From a virus: a DNA stretch of 64,000 nt. A program made the translations under genes and the position numbers. This document shows, in pieces, positions 19,725-48,329 of this stretch. The stretch lies in IMG/VR virus record IMGVR_UViG_3300027861_000010, one strand, 5' to 3'. The notes below the pieces were generated by a model. That model ran no database searches and had not been told where the DNA came from. It saw only the letters and a list, made by a program, of their open reading frames with translations. How positions within the stretch are numbered: the first letter of the stretch is position 1; each line of letters opens with the position of its first letter.

Positions 19725-22700
19725 GTGGCAGGGATGGCCCCTACAACACAATGCCCGCAAGGCCCACAGGATCCGGTGTTCGACATCGTCAAGTGCGATG
19801 TTCCGTGCATCTTCCCGATCCCAGATGGCAATTGGATTGAAGATCCGCAGGTTCCTCCGGCACCGGATGACATCGCGGATTGTCCTGCTATCCCTGTGCC
19901 TTTACCGGAACCGGATCCACTCTGTCCTGAGATCACGTTTGATGGGAATCCTCAAGGTGGGCAGGCTCAAATTAGTGTTGTGCCGATTGGACAAGAACGG
20001 GCTTTCTTCCGTATCACTAAAGGTGAATGTTGCGATTACGACTTCGATCTTGAGATCGACTTTCCTTGTCCTGAACTGATTTCACTGGACTCGAATAGCC
20101 AATCAAACTCGAATTCAAACTCGAATTCGAGTAGTTACGCAGAGTGCGGTACGCCGCCGTCCGCTACGTTAGACATTACGAAGTCAGGCGACTGTACCTA
20201 CACCTTCGATCTTGAAGTCATATTTCCGTGCCCTCAAGACGGACCACAAGGCCCACCAGGCCCACAAGGCCCACAAGGCCCACAAGGACCGGGCGGACCA
20301 CAGGGACCACAGGGACCGGGCGGACCCCAAGGACCACAGGGACCGGGAGGCCCACAAGGGCCACAGGGACCAGAAGGTCCCCAAGGACCACAGGGACCAG
20401 AAGGTCCTCAGGGACCACAGGCACCAAAGAACCCAGACGGTCCACAAGGTCCCCAAGGACCACAAGGCCCGCAAGGACCGGGCGGACCACAGGGACCACA
20501 GGGTCCAGAAGGTCCCCAAGGGCCACAGGGTCCAGAAGGTCCCCAAGGGCCACAGGGACCAGAAGGTCCTCAGGGACCACAGGGACCAGAAGGTCCCCAA
20601 GGACCACAGGGACCACAGGGACCACAGGGTCCAGAAGGTCCCCAAGGGCCACAAGGGCCACAGGGACCGGACGGACCACAAGGAGCCGACGGACCACAGG
20701 GACCGGACGGACCTCAAGGGCCACAGGGACCAGAAGGTCCTCAGGGACCACAAGGGCCACAGGGACCAGAAGGTCCTCAGGGACCACAAGGGCCACAGGG
20801 TACAGAAGGACCACAGGGACCACAGGGTACAGAAGGTCCACAGGGACCACAGGGACCACAGGGTACAGAAGGTCCACAGGGACCACAGGGTACAGAAGGT
20901 CCACAGGGACCACAGGGTACAGAAGGTCCACAGGGACCACAGGGAGCCGACGGACCCCAGGGACCACAGGGAGCCGACGGACCACAGGGACCACAGGGAG
21001 CCGACGGACCACAGGGACCGGACGGACCACAAGGAGCCGACGGACCACAGGGACCGGACGGACCTCAAGGAGCTGACGGACCACAGGGACCGGACGGACC
21101 TCAAGGAGCTGACGGACCTCAAGGCCCCGATGGACCTCAAGGGGCCGATGGACCTCAAGGGGCTGACGGACCTCAAGGCCCCGATGGACCTCAAGGGGCT
21201 AAAGGCCCACAAGGAGCTGACGGCCCACAGGGACCGGACGGACCTCAAGGAGCTGACGGCCCGCAAGGGTCTAAAGGTCCACAAGGAGCTTCCGGACCTC
21301 AGGGAGCTTCCGGACCTCAAGGGTCTAAAGGCCCTCAAGGAACAGCTGGGCCTCAGGGAACAGCCGGACCTCAGGGTGACGCGGGACCTATAGGTCCTCA
21401 AGGCCCGATAGGTCCAGACGGTAATGCCGGACCACAAGGTCCGACCGGGGCAGCTGGCCCGACTGGTGACCCGGGACCTCAAGTTCAAGGAACAGGTGGT
21501 GGGACTGGACCTACAGGAGCAACTGGTCCAACAGGAGCAACAGGCCCAGACGGAGCCCAAGGTCCGGTTGGAGCAACAGGCCCAACAGGAGCAACTGGTC
21601 CAGTCGGAGCAACAGGCCCAGACGGAGCCCAAGGTCCGGTTGGAGCAACAGGCCCAGACGGAGCCCAAGGAGCAGCTGGGGCTGCTGGTGCCCAAGGTGC
21701 TGCCGGGGCTGCTGGTGCTCAAGGTGCTGCCGGGGCTGCTGGTGCTCAAGGTGCTGCCGGGGCTGCTGGTGCCCAAGGTGCTGCCGGGGCTGCTGGTGCC
21801 CAAGGTGCTGCCGGGGCAGCAGGTGCCCAAGGTGCTGCCGGGGCAGCAGGTGCCCAAGGACCAGCCGGAGCAACAGGTTCGCAAGGAGCAGCTGGGGCTG
21901 CTGGTGCTCAAGGTGCTGCCGGGGCAGCAGGTGCCCAAGGACCAGCCGGAGCAACAGGTTCGCAAGGAGCAGCTGGGGCTGCTGGTGCTCAAGGACCAGT
22001 GGGAGCAACAGGTTTTCAAGGCTTCACTGGTCCAACTGGATTTATAGGGTCACAAGGACCGGTTGGTCCAACGGGAGCACAAGGTTCGTCAGGTGCTCAG
22101 GGGCCATTCGGACCAGTCGGTCTTGACGGCACACAAGGCCCGACAGGAGAATCCGGCCCTGTTGGAGCAATAGGGGGTCAAGGACCAACTGGTCCAGCCG
22201 GAGCAACTGGGGCTCAAGGGGCTGCCGGAGCAGCAGGATCTCAAGGCTCTGCTGGAGCCCAAGGCTCTGCTGGAGCAATAGGGGGTCAAGGACCAACTGG
22301 TCCAGCCGGAGCAACTGGGGCTCAAGGGGCTGCCGGAGCAGCAGGATCTCAAGGCTCTGCTGGAGCCCAAGGCTCTGCTGGAGCAACAGGATCACAAGGT
22401 CCGATCGGAGCAACTGGTCCAACAGGAGACGCTGGAGCCGCGGGTGCTCAAGGGCCGACCGGTGCTCAGGGTGCTGACGGTGCAACTGGTCCAACAGGAG
22501 ACGCTGGAGACGCAGGTGCTCAAGGGGCAACCGGACCAACTGGTGGAACAGGGCCAACAGGATCTCAAGGGCCAACAGGATCTCAAGGTCCGACCGGAGC
22601 AACTGGTCCAACAGGAGACGCTGGAGACGCAGGTGCTCAAGGGGCAACCGGACCAACTGGTGGAACAGGGCCAACTGGTTCGCAGGGATCAATAGGTCCG

Positions 22701-24785
22701 ACAGGTCCGACAGGTGGTGCCGGTGTCCAGGGGCCAGTTGGAGTTCAAGGACCTGACGGAGCACCCGGTGCTCAAGGAGCAACAGGTGCTCAAGGTGCTG
22801 ACGGTACAACGGGAGCACAAGGCCCAACTGGTTCGCAGGGATCAACAGGTCCGACAGGTCCGACAGGCACCCCAGGTACGAACGGTTTACCGGGTTCACA
22901 AGGCCCGACCGGTGCTCAAGGTCCGTCAGGTGAGCAAGGTTTAGCTGGTGGTTGGTCGAGCTATTGGGAATTCGATAGTGCTACTGGAACCCCACCGGCC
23001 TCGACTCAACTTCGACTTAACAATGCAACGTTGAGTTCAGTTACTCGCATCTATGCGTCTGATACAAACATAGACTCAGTTGATGTTTCAGGAATGTTGA
23101 ACGCGATCGGTGTCGGCGACATCCTTCGCGTCTTCAATCCCTACGATTCCACAGAATTTGCTCACTACGAAATTGATTCCATTACGGATCAGACTTCGTA
23201 CTTCGACTTCACTGTCACTCATATCGAATCCAACGGTACGTTTACCGACGCGAATCCGATTGTGATGACGGTTTCTATGTTGGGTAATGTTGGTAACCAA
23301 GGGCCAGCCGGAATTACAGGCCCGACCGGTCCTGTTGGGGCTCAAGGAGCAGCTGGCCCAACCGGAGGAACCGGCCCCGCTGGTGTACAAGGCCCAGCAG
23401 GTACTCAAGGGAGTACGGGTCCGAGTGGTGCACAAGGTACAGTAGGTGTTCAAGGAGATACAGGTCCGAGCGGGGCACAGGGATCGGCTGGTGCCCAAGG
23501 ACCGGACGGAGCAACCGGCCCAACTGGAGGAACTGGCCCCGCGGGAGCAACCGGCCCAACTGGAGGAACTGGCCCCGTTGGTGCTCAAGGACCGGACGGA
23601 GGCACAGGACCAGCCGGACCAGCGGGCTCACAAGGACCAACCGGCCCAACTGGAGGAACTGGTCCCGTAGGCGGTCAAGGACCAACAGGCTCACAAGGTC
23701 CGACTGGTCCAACTGGAGGAACTGGCCCCGTTGGTGCTCAAGGACCGGACGGAGGCACAGGACCGGACGGAGGCACAGGACCAGCCGGACCAGCGGGCTC
23801 ACAAGGACCAACCGGCCCAACCGGCCCAACTGGAGGAACTGGTCCCGTAGGCGGTCAAGGACCAACTGGCTCGCAAGGGTCATCTGGTCCGGCTGGCGGG
23901 CAAGGCCCTACTGGTACTCAAGGACCGGACGGAGGCACAGGACCAGCCGGTACGCCAGGTCCTGCTGGTATTCAAGGTCCTGCTGGTGTTCAAGGTCCGG
24001 TAGGTGCAACAGGTTCGCAGGGGCCGACAGGTCCTACTGGAGGCGGCGGTCCAGCCGGTCCTCCTGGTGCTCAAGGCCCAACAGGAACCCAAGGTGCGAC
24101 AGGTTCGCAAGGACCAACCGGCCCAACTGGAGGAACTGGCCCAACTGGAGGAACTGGCCCCGCGGGAGCAACCGGCCCAACTGGAGGAACTGGCCCAACT
24201 GGAGGAACTGGCCCCGCGGGAGCTCAAGGCCCAACAGGAGCCGCCGGAGACGCCGGAGCCCAGGGACCAACCGGAACCGCGGGAGACACCGGCTCACAGG
24301 GTCCAACCGGAACCGCGGGAGACACCGGCTCACAGGGTCCAACTGGAGCTGCCGGGGATCAGGGACCAGAAGGTCCTCAGGGACCTCCTGGACCTCCAGG
24401 AGGAGCGGGACCGCTAACGCTCAGCGACGAGTTCAATCCTTATTTGGACTTCAGTGAGCCAGCGACTGATACATCCATGTTCCTTCGTTCTGGTGCTCAA
24501 GGAGCGACCGGTGCTCAAGGTTCGGTTGGACGCCAAGGCGGCTCCGGTAAACAAGGTTCGACAGGTAAACAAGGTCCGTCCGGTACTAACGCTACCGCCG
24601 AACGTGGTGGTTTACTTGCAGCTTCGATGCTGGATTCAGTGGCAGAGCCTGGTACGATATACTACTCTCTAACTTCGATGAGACTTGTATTCATGGATCG
24701 CAAAGGCAAGATCTTCTCGCTCACAGGTGATGTTCCGGACGGGTACGTTAAGTTCAAGGAGGACTCAGCTGGACCGCAAATTTAA
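19725..24785 (+). CDS. Giant collagen-like protein (probable tail fibre/whisker), 1686 aa
   Basis: Gly-X-Y runs at ~20241-22945 and ~23290-24410, separated by a ~115-aa globular insert. Cys/Pro-rich N-terminus and short C-terminal domain. Confidence 0.85.
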
Positions 24786-44502: not shown

Positions 44503-44887
44503 GGAAGTCGACAAGCTCGTCGGCGACCCTAAGACCAAGAAGCACAACGAAGCAATCGTCTTCATTGGTACCGGAGGCGATCTCAACGAGTGGGTCGACG
44601 GCATCACTGGAATGCTAACAGATGAGTCAATCATGACTCCTGGTGACGAGTGGTACCACATGACCACAACCGGTGGCCGACACGAGTTGGTGATGCCGTT
44701 ACCCGCAGAGGGTGTCGACCTTGGCAAGATGGCCGTCTGGAAGTTCAAGTTCGGTGACTGCTCATGGTGGAGCGACTACCGCGTTAATTACTATGGTCAG
44801 CATGGAGCTGAACGGCCTGTCGAGGCAAACGACCAGGACGAGATTGACGAGTACGAAGAAGAGTCTGGAGTGACGTATGAGTGCTGA
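44477..44887 (+). CDS. Hypothetical phage protein
   Basis: GTG 44477 after AGGAG; GGDLNEWVDGI...TTTGGRHEL...WWSDY. Confidence 0.6.
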   Translation: MSVQKKTFEEVDKLVGDPKTKKHNEAIVFIGTGGDLNEWVDGITGMLTDESIMTPGDEWYHMTTTGGRHELVMPLPAEGVDLGKMAVWKFKFGDCSWWSDYRVNYYGQHGAERPVEANDQDEIDEYEEESGVTYEC

Positions 44888-45287
44888 CTACGAACGCGTC
44901 GTACCTCGCGATCTCTTCCGCGAGAGCTTGTTGTTGAAGTGTCTCGGCAGGCTTTGTTTGTTGATTCACGACGGGAAACTTCCTTGGTTGAAGTTCTACC
45001 ATAATTCTGAGTTCAACACTGAACTAGAATTCAAAGGCTTTGAAATCTCTTGTCGAGATTCAGATGGCGGACTGGAGTGTTGTACTGTCAAGTTCTATCC
45101 AGCAAACACACCAGAAGACTCCGAAATGTGGCAATACGAGCTGGATATCTATACCGGCTTGGCCCGTCAAGGCGATCACTGGCCTCTCCACTTCACTGAC
45201 GAAGGTGAAGAGATCGAGGTCTTCGACAACGAAGGCAATATCACGTCTGAATTTCAGGAGGCAGTCACATGCGAAAGTTCCAAGTGA
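44877..45287 (+). CDS. Hypothetical phage protein
   Basis: YERVVPRDLFRESLLLKCLGRL; coupled. Confidence 0.6.
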   Translation: MSADYERVVPRDLFRESLLLKCLGRLCLLIHDGKLPWLKFYHNSEFNTELEFKGFEISCRDSDGGLECCTVKFYPANTPEDSEMWQYELDIYTGLARQGDHWPLHFTDEGEEIEVFDNEGNITSEFQEAVTCESSK

Positions 45288-45646
45288 CTCTGGCTGACAA
45301 CAACCCAGAGTTCAACACGAAGATTCCGATCGCCGTCTCGGTAGGTCAGAACTTCATTCAGTTCGAGGCCGAAGGCTTCAATGCCTGCGGTGCTGCGGAC
45401 GAGCAACCGATTGGTGACGGCAACCGATCAATTGTTGCGTTCGAGATCTGGGAAGGCCGACTGCGTTTGCTGGTCTGGGCTGACATCAACCAGGAAGATC
45501 CGACGCATACCATCGACCTCGAAGAGGCTCGAACTTCCAACCGCGATTGCTATTACTGTGGCGGTAACTGTCATCGAGACCCTGAACACGCTTGTGACGG
45601 GTACCTCGGTGACATCGACAATCTTTACAAAAAGGAAAAGAAATGA
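45269..45646 (+). CDS. Hypothetical protein with Cys-rich tail
   Basis: CYYCGGNC...HACDG; stop overlaps the RAMP gene start. Confidence 0.6.
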   Translation: MRKFQVTLADNNPEFNTKIPIAVSVGQNFIQFEAEGFNACGAADEQPIGDGNRSIVAFEIWEGRLRLLVWADINQEDPTHTIDLEEARTSNRDCYYCGGNCHRDPEHACDGYLGDIDNLYKKEKK

Positions 45647-46296
45647 AAAACATCAAAATCCAAGTAACTGGACTGACTCCACTACTGATGAACGCCTTCA
45701 AAGGCGACGACAACAACGGATCATCCAAGTCCTCGGCTGCTAAGGATTATGGCACTCCGTTGCAGCAAGCACAGGAGAAGCTGTACATCGGAACGGATGG
45801 CGAAACGCTCGTTATCCCGCAACCGAACATCTTCAGTTGCATCATTGAAGGCGGCAAGTTCTTTAAGAACGGGAAGTCAAAGGTCACGACCATGAAGACC
45901 TCGCTGATTCCCTCGTGCGTTTTCTTCCACGACATCGAGTACCCGCTGGAGTACAACGGCGTAGTAGGGGTGTGGACGACGGCGTTACCGGATCCAAGCT
46001 GCTGGTCGGTTGATAGCAGGCCGATTCGCAACCCTTCAACAGGCGGTCGAATTATGCGTCACCGCCCGATCATTCACGATTGGCGATTCACGTTCGCCGT
46101 TACTCTCGATACCGATGAAATGGCGGTTAGTTTGTTCCGTGACATTGTTGACGCTGCGGGCAGTAAGATCGGACTCGGCGACTTCCGTCCTGGCTGCAAA
46201 GGCTCATTCGGTCGTTGGAAAGTCACCAGTTGGGTCGTTACTGATGAAGAAGAAGAACAAGAAGTAGACGAGGAGGAAGAACTCCTCGAAGTCTGA
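45643..46296 (+). CDS. Stand-alone RAMP / Cas7-like RNA-binding protein
   Basis: RAMP hallmarks: beta1 IKIQVTGLTPLLM, LVIPQPNIFSCIIEGG helix motif, thumb RPIRNPSTGGRIMRHRP, WRFTFAV strand and Gly-rich loop IGLGDFRPGCKGSFGRWKV. Acidic tail. No other cas gene seen in the window. Confidence 0.75.
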   Translation: MKNIKIQVTGLTPLLMNAFKGDDNNGSSKSSAAKDYGTPLQQAQEKLYIGTDGETLVIPQPNIFSCIIEGGKFFKNGKSKVTTMKTSLIPSCVFFHDIEYPLEYNGVVGVWTTALPDPSCWSVDSRPIRNPSTGGRIMRHRPIIHDWRFTFAVTLDTDEMAVSLFRDIVDAAGSKIGLGDFRPGCKGSFGRWKVTSWVVTDEEEEQEVDEEEELLEV

Positions 46297-46307
46297 TTCC
46301 ATTTCAT

Positions 46308-46920
46308 GGAGCGGCTGCGTGTCGCAAGGCTGTGCCAGCTTAGGTCGGGCTTGGCGGGGTCAGGCAGGGTGCGGCAAGGCAAGGTTCCCGTCGTCATCAG
46401 AAATGGTGGCGACGGGCTTCCCGTGGTGGGGCGAGCTTAGGTATGGCAATGCCAGGCAGGGCGGTGCAAGGTACGGCAAGGCAAGGTTCCCGTCGTCATC
46501 AGAAATGGTGGCGGTGGGCTTCTCACGGTCAGGCACTGCTAGGTCGGGCGGGGCGGGGCGTGGCACGTCCGGGTGTGGTTAGGCAAGGCAAGGTTCCCGT
46601 CGTCATCAGAAATGGTGGCGGCGGGCTTTTACGCGGCGAGGCGAGGCGTGGCCGGGCGAGGCATGGCCGGGAGCGGCAATGCAGGGTGCGGCAAGGCAAG
46701 GTTCCCGTCGTCATCAGAAATGGTGGCGGCGGGCTTCTCAGGGCGAGGCGGGGCGACGCTCGGCATGGCTATGCCTGGCCGTGCTCGGCGTGGCTAGGAG
46801 CGGCAAGGCAAGGTTCCCGTCGTCATCAGAAATGGTGGCGGCGGGCTTTTACGCGGCGAGGCGAGGCCATGCAAGGCAGGGCGATGCAAGGTACGGCATG
46901 GAGTGGCGAGGTTTTTATTT
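46308..46920 (+). repeat. Guide-RNA-like array: five 30-nt hairpin repeats separated by GGY-NN pentamer tracts
   Basis: Hairpin CCCGTCGTCATC-AGAAAT-GGTGGCGRYGGG at 46387, 46489, 46596, 46704 and 46816, each preceded by GGCAAGGCAAGGTT. Periods are 102/107/108/112. Six tracts of 15, 12, 13, 13, 14 and 11 pentamers; ends in GGTTTTTATTT. Confidence 0.92.
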
Positions 46921-46951
46921 ACACAGGAGAAAAAAGAATGGAGGAACAAAG

Positions 46952-47386
46952 ATGTCAACGTCAAGACACCTGATTGATGCGGCGGAGTTGTTTGTGTCGA
47001 TGCCGGTTACGGTGTTGGCTCAAGCCGTCGAAGCACTGGGGTACGAGAACCCGCAGTACGAGATGTCGCGTGTGCTTTCACTTCAGCAGGCACTGAAGCA
47101 GGACTTCGAGAGTCGGAACAACATGGCTCCCGACCTGGCCGAAGCCCTCTACAACCTGGCTGACGAAGCTTACGCCAACGAAGACGACATGCAGACGAAC
47201 GTCGATCCACTTGAGATGCCGTTCGACATGTCCGAAGCAGACGAAGGTACCTGGGCTCATGCGTGGGTTTGGGTGCCTAACGATGAACTCGAAAAGGAGG
47301 TCTGGCGGATTCAGGAGGAACGGCGACAACAGAAACTTCGAGAGAAGGAGAAACCTAGTGGCTATAGACTGGGACGACGAATTTGA
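46952..47386 (+). CDS. Hypothetical protein
   Basis: ATG 46952 after GGAGGA; the upstream extension in the ORF track is array sequence. Confidence 0.65.
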   Translation: MSTSRHLIDAAELFVSMPVTVLAQAVEALGYENPQYEMSRVLSLQQALKQDFESRNNMAPDLAEALYNLADEAYANEDDMQTNVDPLEMPFDMSEADEGTWAHAWVWVPNDELEKEVWRIQEERRQQKLREKEKPSGYRLGRRI

Positions 47387-47558
47387 GGGGTTCTGTGAGC
47401 AGGCAACTGATGCCCAGCTCGCGGCCATTTACTGGAAAGAAACTGACAACGAACGTCCTGCTTACGCAGCCATCGCCAAGGCGGTGGCCAAGGGCCGCGG
47501 GCTACCCGACCCGTCGCTTGAGCGTGTGCAGTGGCGTGAAGACAACGAGAGGAGATAA
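47358..47558 (+). CDS. Hypothetical protein
   Basis: GTG 47358 after AAGGAG. Confidence 0.5.
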   Translation: MAIDWDDEFEGFCEQATDAQLAAIYWKETDNERPAYAAIAKAVAKGRGLPDPSLERVQWREDNERR

Positions 47559-47561
47559 CCA

Positions 47562-48329
47562 ATGGGTGCGTGTTTCAAAAATGTCGTCTGGGATGGGAAA
47601 CTGACCTACGACGAGGTGAAGAAGAAGTACCAGGACATGGTCAACGAACTTCTTCACATGCATGGTGCGGATGCCTACAACGGCACCTTCACAACGTGTA
47701 GTGGGCTGGCGATTCAGAACGGTAAGGCTCACGGCAGTGAGCACGAAGCCTACGAGTGGCTTTGCGAGAACGCTCAGAAATGGGAGAACGCGATCGCAGT
47801 CAAGTTCAGGGACGTGAAGAAGGTCGTACCGAAGCCTCCGAGCTTTGGCGGCAAAGTGATCAACTCTTCGTCGGACTTTGGTTATCGCTTCGTGGGGTTC
47901 GGTGATTTTCTGGGACGCTCGGCACCGAAGACCGGCATGAAGTCATGCATGATCTACGAACACCGGGACTGGAAGACTGACAAGTACACGTTCAAGATCC
48001 TGCCAGCCGACGCGTTGACCGCCCTTCAGCAGGAACGTCTGCAGAAGACTGTGGGTGAGTACGTGGAGGCCCGCAAGGATCACAAGAAGAAGCTCGTCGA
48101 GTTCAACAGCCTGATCGACAGCATCAAGAGTTACACTCAGGCGATTCCCGAGTCCGCTTTCACCCAGATGAAAAAGCTTCGTAAATCGTTGGTCACTTCT
48201 CACAACAAAGGCATTCGCCTTGCAGAGAAACTGCTCAAGATCGACGAGAAGTATGAAGACAGGCTTTGGAAGACCAAAGAGGTCGACGAAGGCGAGAAAT
48301 GGATGATCGGCGGCTGGTGTTCCGAATAG
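47562..48329 (+). CDS. Hypothetical phage protein
   Basis: 255 aa; HGADAYNGTFTT...KWENAIAV...W.IGGWCSE. Confidence 0.7.
   Translation: MGACFKNVVWDGKLTYDEVKKKYQDMVNELLHMHGADAYNGTFTTCSGLAIQNGKAHGSEHEAYEWLCENAQKWENAIAVKFRDVKKVVPKPPSFGGKVINSSSDFGYRFVGFGDFLGRSAPKTGMKSCMIYEHRDWKTDKYTFKILPADALTALQQERLQKTVGEYVEARKDHKKKLVEFNSLIDSIKSYTQAIPESAFTQMKKLRKSLVTSHNKGIRLAEKLLKIDEKYEDRLWKTKEVDEGEKWMIGGWCSE

What the first reader, a model, noticed from the sequence alone, without database searches (positions are those of the whole stretch)
46387..46845. Conserved 12-bp hairpin separators vary only by G-U-compatible substitutions
The 5' arm CCCGTCGTCATC and loop AGAAAT are invariant. The 3' arm is GGTGGCGACGGG (copy 1), GGTGGCGGTGGG (copy 2) and GGTGGCGGCGGG (copies 3-5). 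Every difference keeps pairing via G-U, which points to selection on RNA structure. The hairpins are flanked by GGCAAGGCAAGGTT upstream and a pyrimidine linker (CTTCCCGT, CTTCTCAC, CTTTTACGC, CTTCTCAG) downstream. They are candidate processing sites or caps that end filament growth and define unit guides. The last tract ends in a U-rich run instead.
Basis: partly seen in the sequence, partly recalled or inferred. Interest (0 to 1): 0.75.

Follow-up and report, generated by a model that had tools for sequence, protein, structure and literature searches.

The report
Hairpin tails of VIPR guide RNAs
The five conserved hairpins are real, are kept by selection on RNA pairing, and are the 3' end-caps ("tails") that separate six five-base-coded guide RNAs of a phage VIPR system, a CRISPR-related RNA-guided DNA silencer first described in 2026 preprints; this is a new example of a known kind.

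Summary
Observation confirmed. Five copies of one hairpin lie at 46387-46845, and a 25-mer of it is exact in all five (0 expected by chance). The two in-window substitutions keep pairing, but they are weak evidence alone (chance about 0.02-0.17). Relatives settle it. In 22 distinct tails from seven related metagenomic phage loci plus the window, 99.7% of stem cells pair. Three pairs show compensatory double changes, and the match is strand-specific.

The stem has 13 bp, not 12, and closes a GAAA tetraloop.

The gene directly upstream (45643-46296) is a Vipr homologue. Its family profile matches PDB 36pp "SUSP1 Vipr protein" at E 7.9e-13, and its model has a Cas7/Csm3-like fold. The hairpins separate six tracts of 11-15 GGY-NN pentamers. 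They are therefore the vrRNA 3' tails of a VIPR array, as published for phage SUSP1, where the tail is a pseudoknot.

Three local features differ:
- Only 8-9 nt separate a tail from the next guide, with no room for promoters, which implies co-transcription and processing (untested).
- The two pentamers before each tail are constant (AA-AA).
- The last guide has no tail, and this holds across relatives.

This scan has already found VIPR tail hairpins on other DNA several times. Verdict: new member of a known kind, moderate to low interest.

The parts
45643..46296 (+). vipr gene (217 aa, RAMP/Cas7-like; P0001)
   Evidence: phmmer to PDB 36pp_D 'SUSP1 Vipr protein' gives E 1.1e-5. A profile of 32 relatives gives E 7.9e-13 over the full length. 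BLASTP to SUSP1 YP_009199429.1 gives 2e-13 at 25% identity. The AF2 model has pLDDT 83 and its top Foldseek hits are Csm3/Cas7. The protein also matches phrog_4652.
46308..46384 (+). guide tract T1: 15 GGY-NN pentamers, starting 12 nt after the vipr stop codon
   Evidence: Pentamer register and detector.
46387..46416 (+). tail hairpin 1: 13 bp plus GAAA loop, 3' arm ...GCGACGGG. Followed by linker CTTCCCGT (46417-46424)
46425..46486 (+). guide tract T2 (12 pentamers, last two GGCAA GGCAA)
46489..46518 (+). tail hairpin 2 (3' arm ...GCGGTGGG; G.U at pair 4). Followed by linker CTTCTCAC
46527..46593 (+). guide tract T3 (13 pentamers)
46596..46625 (+). tail hairpin 3 (consensus). Followed by linker CTTTTACGC
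46635..46701 (+). guide tract T4 (13 pentamers)
46704..46733 (+). tail hairpin 4 (consensus). Followed by linker CTTCTCAG
46742..46813 (+). guide tract T5 (14 pentamers)
46816..46845 (+). tail hairpin 5 (consensus). Followed by linker CTTTTACGC
46855..46920 (+). terminal guide tract T6 (11 pentamers). It has no AA-AA units and no hairpin, and ends GG+UUUUUAUUU directly before the ribosome-binding site of the next gene
   Evidence: The same tail-less end occurs in relatives L002, L006, L012, L013, L077 and L133.
46952..47386 (+). conserved small acidic helical protein (144 aa, P0122) downstream of the array; possible accessory (vap-like) gene, function unknown
   Evidence: Syntenic homologues lie after the arrays of L002, L006, L012 and L013. 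It has no Pfam or PHROG hit, no similarity to SUSP1 vap1, and only a low-confidence model.

Best explanation
The hairpins are the conserved 3' tail modules of the guide RNAs (vrRNAs) of a phage-encoded VIPR system. The locus is vipr (45643-46296), then six GGY-NN pentamer tracts, then a small conserved gene.

Each of the first five tracts ends in a constant module: GGCAA-GGCAA-GG, 2 U (2-6 in relatives), a 13-bp GNRA-capped hairpin, then CUUYU.

Proposed mechanism:
- Shown by homology: Vipr protomers bind one pentamer each, holding GGY and presenting NN for gapped pairing with target DNA.
- Inferred from the published SUSP1 structures: the folded tail offers no single-stranded GGY at 5-nt spacing, so it ends the filament and caps the RNA 3' end.
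- Inferred: only 8-9 nt separate a tail from the next tract and no promoter fits, so the array is transcribed as one RNA with vipr.
- Hypothesis: the transcript is cut in the conserved pyrimidine linker just 3' of each stem, by a host endonuclease such as RNase E, or less likely by Vipr or an accessory protein. The stem then blocks 3' exonucleases. This would give unit guides of the form 5'-linker, tract, hairpin-3'.

The tail sequence is specific to its Vipr clade, which suggests it is also recognised by sequence.
For: Vipr identity. The residues that hold GGY in SUSP1 (R138, D177, W178, R179; paper .720927) align with R141, D180, F181 and R182, which are invariant among 32 relatives.

Pentamer tracts: six in the window and none elsewhere on either strand. 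Over 169 sequences there are 385 tracts on the vipr strand and 1 on the opposite strand. The tracts have 11-15 units, within the published 9-16.

Structure: all five hairpins appear in both the MFE and the centroid fold of the whole array (z -9.6). Across relatives 99.7% of cells pair, with three compensatory pairs. The model hits only the + strand, and only the clade with Vipr identity of 60% or more.

Conservation: the hairpin is 83-100% identical where the vipr gene DNA is 63-85% identical.

Polarity: conservation runs from the hairpin upstream into the last two pentamers and only 5-6 nt downstream. Among 316 distinct tracts, the last NN is AA in 60% and the second-last in 52%, against 11-12% at first or middle units.

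SUSP1 and LESphi2 loci show tract-then-tail directly.

No sigma-70-like promoter lies in the array. No Rfam family, including hammerhead, matches.
Against: There are no RNA-end data, so the unit boundaries, the cut site and the enzyme are all inferred.

The array has six tracts but five hairpins. The anatomy alone therefore cannot exclude that the hairpin serves the downstream tract.

The tail-less last guide, conserved in architecture, shows that a hairpin is not needed after every tract. Otherwise that tract is not functional.

The U spacer between the last GG and the stem varies from 2 to 6 nt in relatives. This argues against a rigid docking of the last protomer on the stem.

No natural target was found for three guides tried as exact gapped patterns, and no self-target lies in the window.
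Confidence: 0.8

Rival explanations
1. The hairpin is a 5' handle or nucleation element for the tract that follows it, and the first tract (in the vipr 3' UTR) is the odd one out.
For: There are six tracts and five hairpins, so either end tract could be the exception. A duplication in the array copies hairpin, linker and the start of the following tract together: 46582-46678 against 46802-46898, 86% identity.
Against: In the experimentally mapped SUSP1 vrRNAs the structured element is 3' of the tract (paper .720920). Conservation extends upstream into two constant pentamers but only 5-6 nt downstream. Constant AA-AA at the 3' end of tracts is family-wide. In L010 and L075 the last tract is also followed by a hairpin, of another kind.
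Confidence: 0.08
2. The hairpins are leaky intrinsic terminators that give graded 3' ends along the array.
For: The stem is G+C-rich, -17 to -23 kcal/mol. It is followed by CUUUU in copies 3 and 5, and by CUUUUAUUU in L006.
Against: The terminator scan calls none of them. Three of five copies have CUUC(C/U)C instead of a U run. Termination alone would give nested multi-guide RNAs with a common 5' end. The stem sequence is conserved far beyond what a terminator needs. The end of the array has a U run but no stem.
Confidence: 0.06
3. The array is not cut. One long RNA carries several Vipr filaments, and the hairpins act only as insulators between them.
For: No processing enzyme or ribozyme was identified. 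The downstream gene appears to be co-transcribed, since its ribosome-binding site directly follows T6.
Against: Published vrRNAs are discrete species of about 100 nt, and other array types are processed (paper .720920). A conserved CUUYU linker sits right after the stem.
Confidence: 0.05
4. The hairpin is a DNA-level element (protein-binding inverted repeat or cruciform), or merely recently duplicated DNA without function.
For: It is a perfect direct repeat within the window.
Against: Three of 13 pairs are G.U in the consensus, which are A.C mismatches on the other strand. Every variant keeps RNA pairing on the + strand only. The hairpin is conserved in phages whose vipr gene is only 63-72% identical, while the tracts between hairpins are unrelated.
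Confidence: 0.01

Closest known systems
vrRNA 3' tail of the type II VIPR system of Escherichia phage SUSP1 (bioRxiv 10.64898/2026.04.26.720920 and .720927; PDB 36pp)
   Same: An invariant structured element directly follows a GGY-NN tract of 9-16 units, next to a homologous Vipr gene, in a phage. [quoted passage not shown] The tail sequence is clade-specific and marks which RNAs a given Vipr can use (10.64898/2026.10.15.759431).
   Different: SUSP1 tails are about 40-nt H-type pseudoknots; this one is a simple 13-bp GNRA-capped hairpin. SUSP1 vrRNAs are separated by 40-70 nt of conserved, promoter-like spacer and one lies upstream of vipr. Here six guides abut with 8-9 nt linkers, all downstream of vipr. 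Vipr identity is only 25%. No vap1 homologue is present. The last guide has no tail.
Hairpin tails of Pseudomonas prophage VIPR loci (e.g. phage LESphi2, a relative of the published P. fulva clade)
   Same: Each tract ends ...GGCAAGG or ...GGCGAGG and runs straight into a small hairpin.
   Different: The LESphi2 stems are short, 4-6 bp. Its vrRNAs lie upstream of vipr and are about 60-70 nt apart. There is no sequence similarity to the tail studied here.
CRISPR repeat hairpins of type I-E/I-F, cut by Cas6e/Cas6f at the 3' base of the stem (established knowledge)
   Same: The layout looks alike: a conserved repeat with a stem-loop, which would yield units with a short 5' handle (here CUUYUNNN), a variable part and a 3' hairpin. 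The partner protein is a RAMP.
   Different: The variable part is a phased GGY-NN code, not a contiguous spacer. There is no Cas6, Cas1 or Cas2, and no Pfam hit in ten neighbouring genes. Cleavage at the stem base is not shown.
Other VIPR array architectures named in the discovery paper (staggered arrays; hammerhead-interspersed arrays)
   Same: These are compact arrays in which neighbouring vrRNAs abut and must be processed.
   Different: No hammerhead or any other Rfam family matches here, even at E<=1. Relatives with 10-11 nt CATAGTAGC separators (L042, L056) lack hairpins and may be the staggered type. The figures of the paper could not be seen.

Membership tests
VIPR system | Vipr protein: minimal RAMP (RRM core, G-loop, thumb) homologous to SUSP1 Vipr | tested here: met
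   PDB 36pp_D matches at E 1.1e-5 with the single sequence and 7.9e-13 with the profile, over the full length. BLASTP gives 2e-13. The AF2 model's top fold hits are Csm3/Cas7. The G-loop GDFRP and the thumb Arg are invariant.
VIPR system | vrRNA made of tandem GGY-NN pentamers (9-16 units) beside vipr, on the same strand | tested here: met
   Six tracts of 11-15 units lie at 46308-46911 and none elsewhere in the window. In relatives 385 tracts are on the vipr strand against 1 on the opposite strand.
VIPR system | Invariant structured 3' tail after the tract | tested here: met
   Five of six tracts are followed by the covarying 13-bp hairpin. The sixth has none.
VIPR system | Accessory vap gene | tested here: inconclusive
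   A conserved 144-aa gene follows the array in five loci. It has no family hit and no similarity to SUSP1 vap1.
VIPR system | Mostly viral or proviral location | tested here: met
   The window carries a baseplate wedge (phrog_6), GP88 (PF17338) and other PHROG hits. 82 relatives of the Vipr occur on IMG/VR contigs.
VIPR system | vrRNA expression, Vipr binding, and DNA recognition by the 1-nt-skip rule | not testable with these tools
   Exact gapped patterns of T4, T6 (viral contigs) and T5 (genomes) found nothing.
SUSP1-clade pseudoknot tail | H-type pseudoknot with sequence similarity to the SUSP1 tail | tested here: not met
   The fold is a simple hairpin. The only candidate loop-to-linker pairing (AGAA with UUCU) is sterically impossible across a 12-13 bp stem with a 1-nt connector (reasoning). 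The SUSP1 locus L001 gives no hit with model R1.
CRISPR array | Repeats separated by contiguous unique spacers, with cas1/cas2 and effector genes | tested here: not met
   The variable parts are phased pentamers. No Cas family appears in ten neighbouring genes.
Intrinsic terminator | G+C-rich stem followed at once by a U run (5 or more U in 8) | tested here: not met
   None of the five is called by the scan. The tails are CUUC(C/U)C or CUUUUAC.
Hammerhead-interspersed VIPR array or any Rfam family | Match to a curated covariance model | tested here: not met
   There are 0 hits at gathering score over the window, and 0 hits at E<=1 over 45600-47400.

The most novel reading that the evidence does not exclude
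In this Vipr clade the conserved module (two constant pentamers, hairpin, CUUYU) works like a CRISPR repeat. The vipr-array transcript would be cut at the 3' base of each stem by Vipr itself or by a dedicated factor. That would yield crRNA-like units with an 8-nt 5' handle and a 3' hairpin, an organisational intermediate between VIPR and class 1 CRISPR arrays. The conserved tail-less terminal guide would then show that the tail serves processing rather than Vipr loading.
Probability: 0.15. Interest if true: 0.7.

Novelty: new member of a known kind. Interest (0 to 1): 0.3.

Why it matters
The finding adds a well-defined, covariation-supported tail type to the very young VIPR field: a 13-bp GNRA-capped hairpin, specific to one clade of marine and environmental phages.

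It also documents a compact, promoter-less array embedded between vipr and a downstream gene. That layout makes two open questions directly testable:
- How are vrRNA arrays matured when they carry neither ribozymes nor individual promoters?
- Is the tail needed for Vipr loading? The naturally tail-less last guide is a ready-made control.

For the scan it closes the case: the hairpins are explained by known biology.

Tried and rejected
- **Known RNA family:** Rfam gave no hit at gathering score over the window or at E<=1 over the locus, and there are no tRNAs.
- **Coding region:** ORFs of 87-235 aa overlap the array. They are artefacts of G-rich DNA with few stop codons. Unit spacings of 102, 107, 108 and 112 nt and the 5-nt period are not compatible with coding.
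- **Pseudoknot like SUSP1:** loop AGAA could pair with linker UUCU or UUUU. However, the linker starts 1 nt after a 12-13 bp stem and cannot reach the loop, so this was rejected.
- **Separate promoters or terminators per unit:** none was found.
- **DNA relatives:** the locus has no match in INPHARED phages and the hairpin has none in IMG/VR. A single-protein search of IMG/VR found nothing. An alignment query was needed.
- **Remote homologues of the tail:** model R1 found none outside the close clade. Other clades use unrelated tails.
- **Guide targets:** there is no self-target in the window above shuffled guides. Exact 1-nt-skip patterns of T4 and T6 in viral contigs and T5 in GTDB genomes found nothing. 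Exact matching is insensitive, so this says little.
- **Downstream 144-aa protein as processing enzyme:** it has no family hit. The AF2 model is helical and of low confidence (pLDDT 69), so no fold search was run.
- **Whole genome:** none is held for this window.

Full report
**Observation.** The region 46300-46930 holds five tandem units spaced 102-112 nt apart. Each unit has a constant block: GGCAAGGCAAGG, TT, CCCGTCGTCATC, AGAAAT, GGTGGCG(G/A)(C/T)GGG, CTT. A 25-mer of this block is exact in all five copies, lies only on the + strand, and is found nowhere else in the 64 kb; 0 matches are expected by chance. RNAfold adds a 13th pair, A-U from the supposed 6-nt loop, which leaves a GAAA tetraloop. 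Stabilities are -17 to -23 kcal/mol on the + strand and -6 to -13 on the reverse complement. All five hairpins survive in both the MFE and the centroid fold of the whole 631-nt array, at z -9.6.

**Is the G-U argument significant?** Not by itself. In the 3' arm only 5 of 12 transitions and 0 of 24 transversions keep pairing. Two compatible changes therefore have a chance probability of roughly 0.02-0.17.

**What the locus is.** My first guess was a phage non-coding RNA that binds an oligomeric protein through its 5-nt rhythm. A sibling note of this scan named VIPR, and the literature search found three 2026 preprints. They describe a small RAMP protein, Vipr, that polymerises one protomer per GGY-NN pentamer along a vrRNA. 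The NN dinucleotides read DNA with one skipped base. [quoted passage not shown]

I tested membership in four ways.
- The 217-aa product of 45643-46296 matches PDB 36pp 'SUSP1 Vipr protein' at E 1.1e-5. A profile of 32 relatives matches it at E 7.9e-13 end to end.
- BLASTP against SUSP1 YP_009199429.1 gives 2e-13 at 25% identity.
- The SUSP1 residues that hold GGY (R138, D177, W178, R179) align with R141, D180, F181 and R182, which are invariant in the family.
- An AlphaFold model (pLDDT 83) is closest to Csm3/Cas7 subunits.

A simple pentamer detector finds exactly six tracts in the window, of 11-15 units, and none elsewhere on either strand. Over 169 sequences around Vipr homologues it finds 385 tracts on the vipr strand and 1 on the other. 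The window is phage DNA: it has a baseplate wedge, GP88 and other PHROG hits.

**Relatives and covariation.** The protein family is large, with 756 hits. I fetched loci by exact protein look-up and by alignment-based scans. The same hairpin occurs only in the clade whose Vipr is at least 60% identical: L002-L010, L012 and L013. I aligned 24 tails, 22 of them distinct.
- For the 13-bp stem, 99.7% of cells are standard pairs, against 27-76% when the partner is slid by 1-3 columns.
- Three pairs show changes on both sides: C-G to U-A twice, and the loop-closing A-U to G-C.
- Six pairs vary on one side through G.U, and there is one unpaired cell in 286.
- Loops are GAAA or GAGA (GNRA) in most tails, and GACA together with the G-C closing pair in three.

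A covariance model scores 57-71 bits on the + strand and about 12 bits on the - strand. It finds nothing in more distant loci or in SUSP1. The hairpin is 83-100% identical where the vipr gene DNA is only 63-85% identical. Selection on an RNA structure, and also on its sequence, is therefore well supported.

**Which tract does the hairpin belong to?** The array has six tracts and five hairpins, so the count alone does not decide. Several observations favour a 3' tail.
- Conservation extends from the stem upstream through a U spacer (2 nt here, 2-6 in relatives) into two constant pentamers (NN = AA, AA). Downstream it covers only CUUYU, after which the NN positions are free.
- Over 316 distinct tracts of the wider family, the last NN is AA in 60% and the second-last in 52%, against 11-12% at first and middle units.
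- SUSP1 and LESphi2 loci show the tract running straight into the tail.
- In L010 and L075 even the last tract is followed by a hairpin, of another kind.

**Local peculiarities.**
1. Tails and following tracts are separated by only 8-9 nt. No sigma-70-like promoter lies in 44800-47600, and the hairpins are not called as terminators. SUSP1, by contrast, has 40-70 nt conserved spacers before each vrRNA. The array is therefore most likely transcribed with vipr and then cut. No ribozyme is present.
2. T6 lacks both the AA-AA units and the hairpin. It ends GG+UUUUUAUUU right before the ribosome-binding site of a conserved 144-aa gene. The same tail-less ending recurs in L002, L006, L012 and L013, and in unrelated hairpin-type arrays L077 and L133. 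The NN letters of these last tracts differ between relatives.
3. The 3' arm is itself GGU-GGC-GGC-GGG, so the stem may also hide GGY triplets from Vipr. This last point is speculation.

**Mechanism proposed.** Two steps are shown by homology: Vipr binds the pentamers, and the tail ends the filament and caps the 3' end. Three steps are inferred: the array is co-transcribed; an endonuclease cuts in the conserved pyrimidine linker, where GC/UUY resembles the RNase E preference as I recall it; and the stem protects the new 3' end from exonucleases. A 13-bp stem is short for RNase III (my own knowledge). The enzyme and the cut site are unknown.

**Comparison and novelty.** This is the vrRNA tail of a VIPR system. 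It is a hairpin rather than the SUSP1 pseudoknot, in a compact array with a tail-less last guide. Hairpin tails also occur in the Pseudomonas clade. This scan has already reported VIPR tail hairpins on other DNA several times. I class it as a new member of a known kind.

**Limits.** There are no RNA-end data. The type assignment within the seven published VIPR types was not possible, because the figures and data were not available. Guide targets were not found by exact gapped patterns.

Noticed in passing
window 46952-47386: A small acidic, mostly helical 144-aa protein follows the array directly, with its ribosome-binding site abutting the last guide. Homologues lie downstream of the arrays of L002, L006, L012 and L013. 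It has no family hit and no similarity to SUSP1 vap1. It may be this clade's accessory (vap) gene.
   Followed up: partly
window 45269-45646: A 125-aa ORF overlaps the vipr start by 4 nt. It is present at about 80% identity in L004, L005, L007 and L008. It is absent upstream of the identical Vipr in L002 and L003, so it is a variable neighbour rather than a core part.
   Followed up: partly
316 distinct tracts in loci L002-L168: Family-wide, the last two pentamers before the tail are usually GGCAA (NN = AA in 60% and 52% of tracts, against 11-12% elsewhere). This looks like a constant 3' handle inside the 'programmable' tract. If these units pair with DNA, targets would need a fixed TTxTT-like end, which would act somewhat like a PAM.
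   Followed up: partly
L002 3594-3723: The last two guides of this relative are near-identical copies, and the terminal one is a pentamer longer and tail-less. In the window, hairpin, linker and tract start at 46582-46678 are duplicated at 46802-46898 (86% identity). Arrays seem to grow by block duplication.
   Followed up: no
L042, L056-L059, L062, L068, L081, L104, L111, L116, L121: More distant Vipr loci carry long arrays in which tracts are separated only by a 10-11 nt CATAGTAGC-like motif with no hairpin. These may be the 'staggered' arrays of the discovery paper.
   Followed up: no
L031-L033: Single uninterrupted pentamer tracts of 47-93 units flank a Vipr gene. This is far longer than the published 9-16 units.
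   Followed up: no
window 19725-24785, especially 20001-24000: A 1686-aa ORF has unusual composition: G+C 0.60-0.64 against 0.51 around it, and AT skew up to 0.42.
   Followed up: no
window 45643-46296: The Vipr protein matches phrog_4652 (E 6e-19), which PHROGs lists as 'unknown function'. That PHROG family is evidently Vipr.
   Followed up: no
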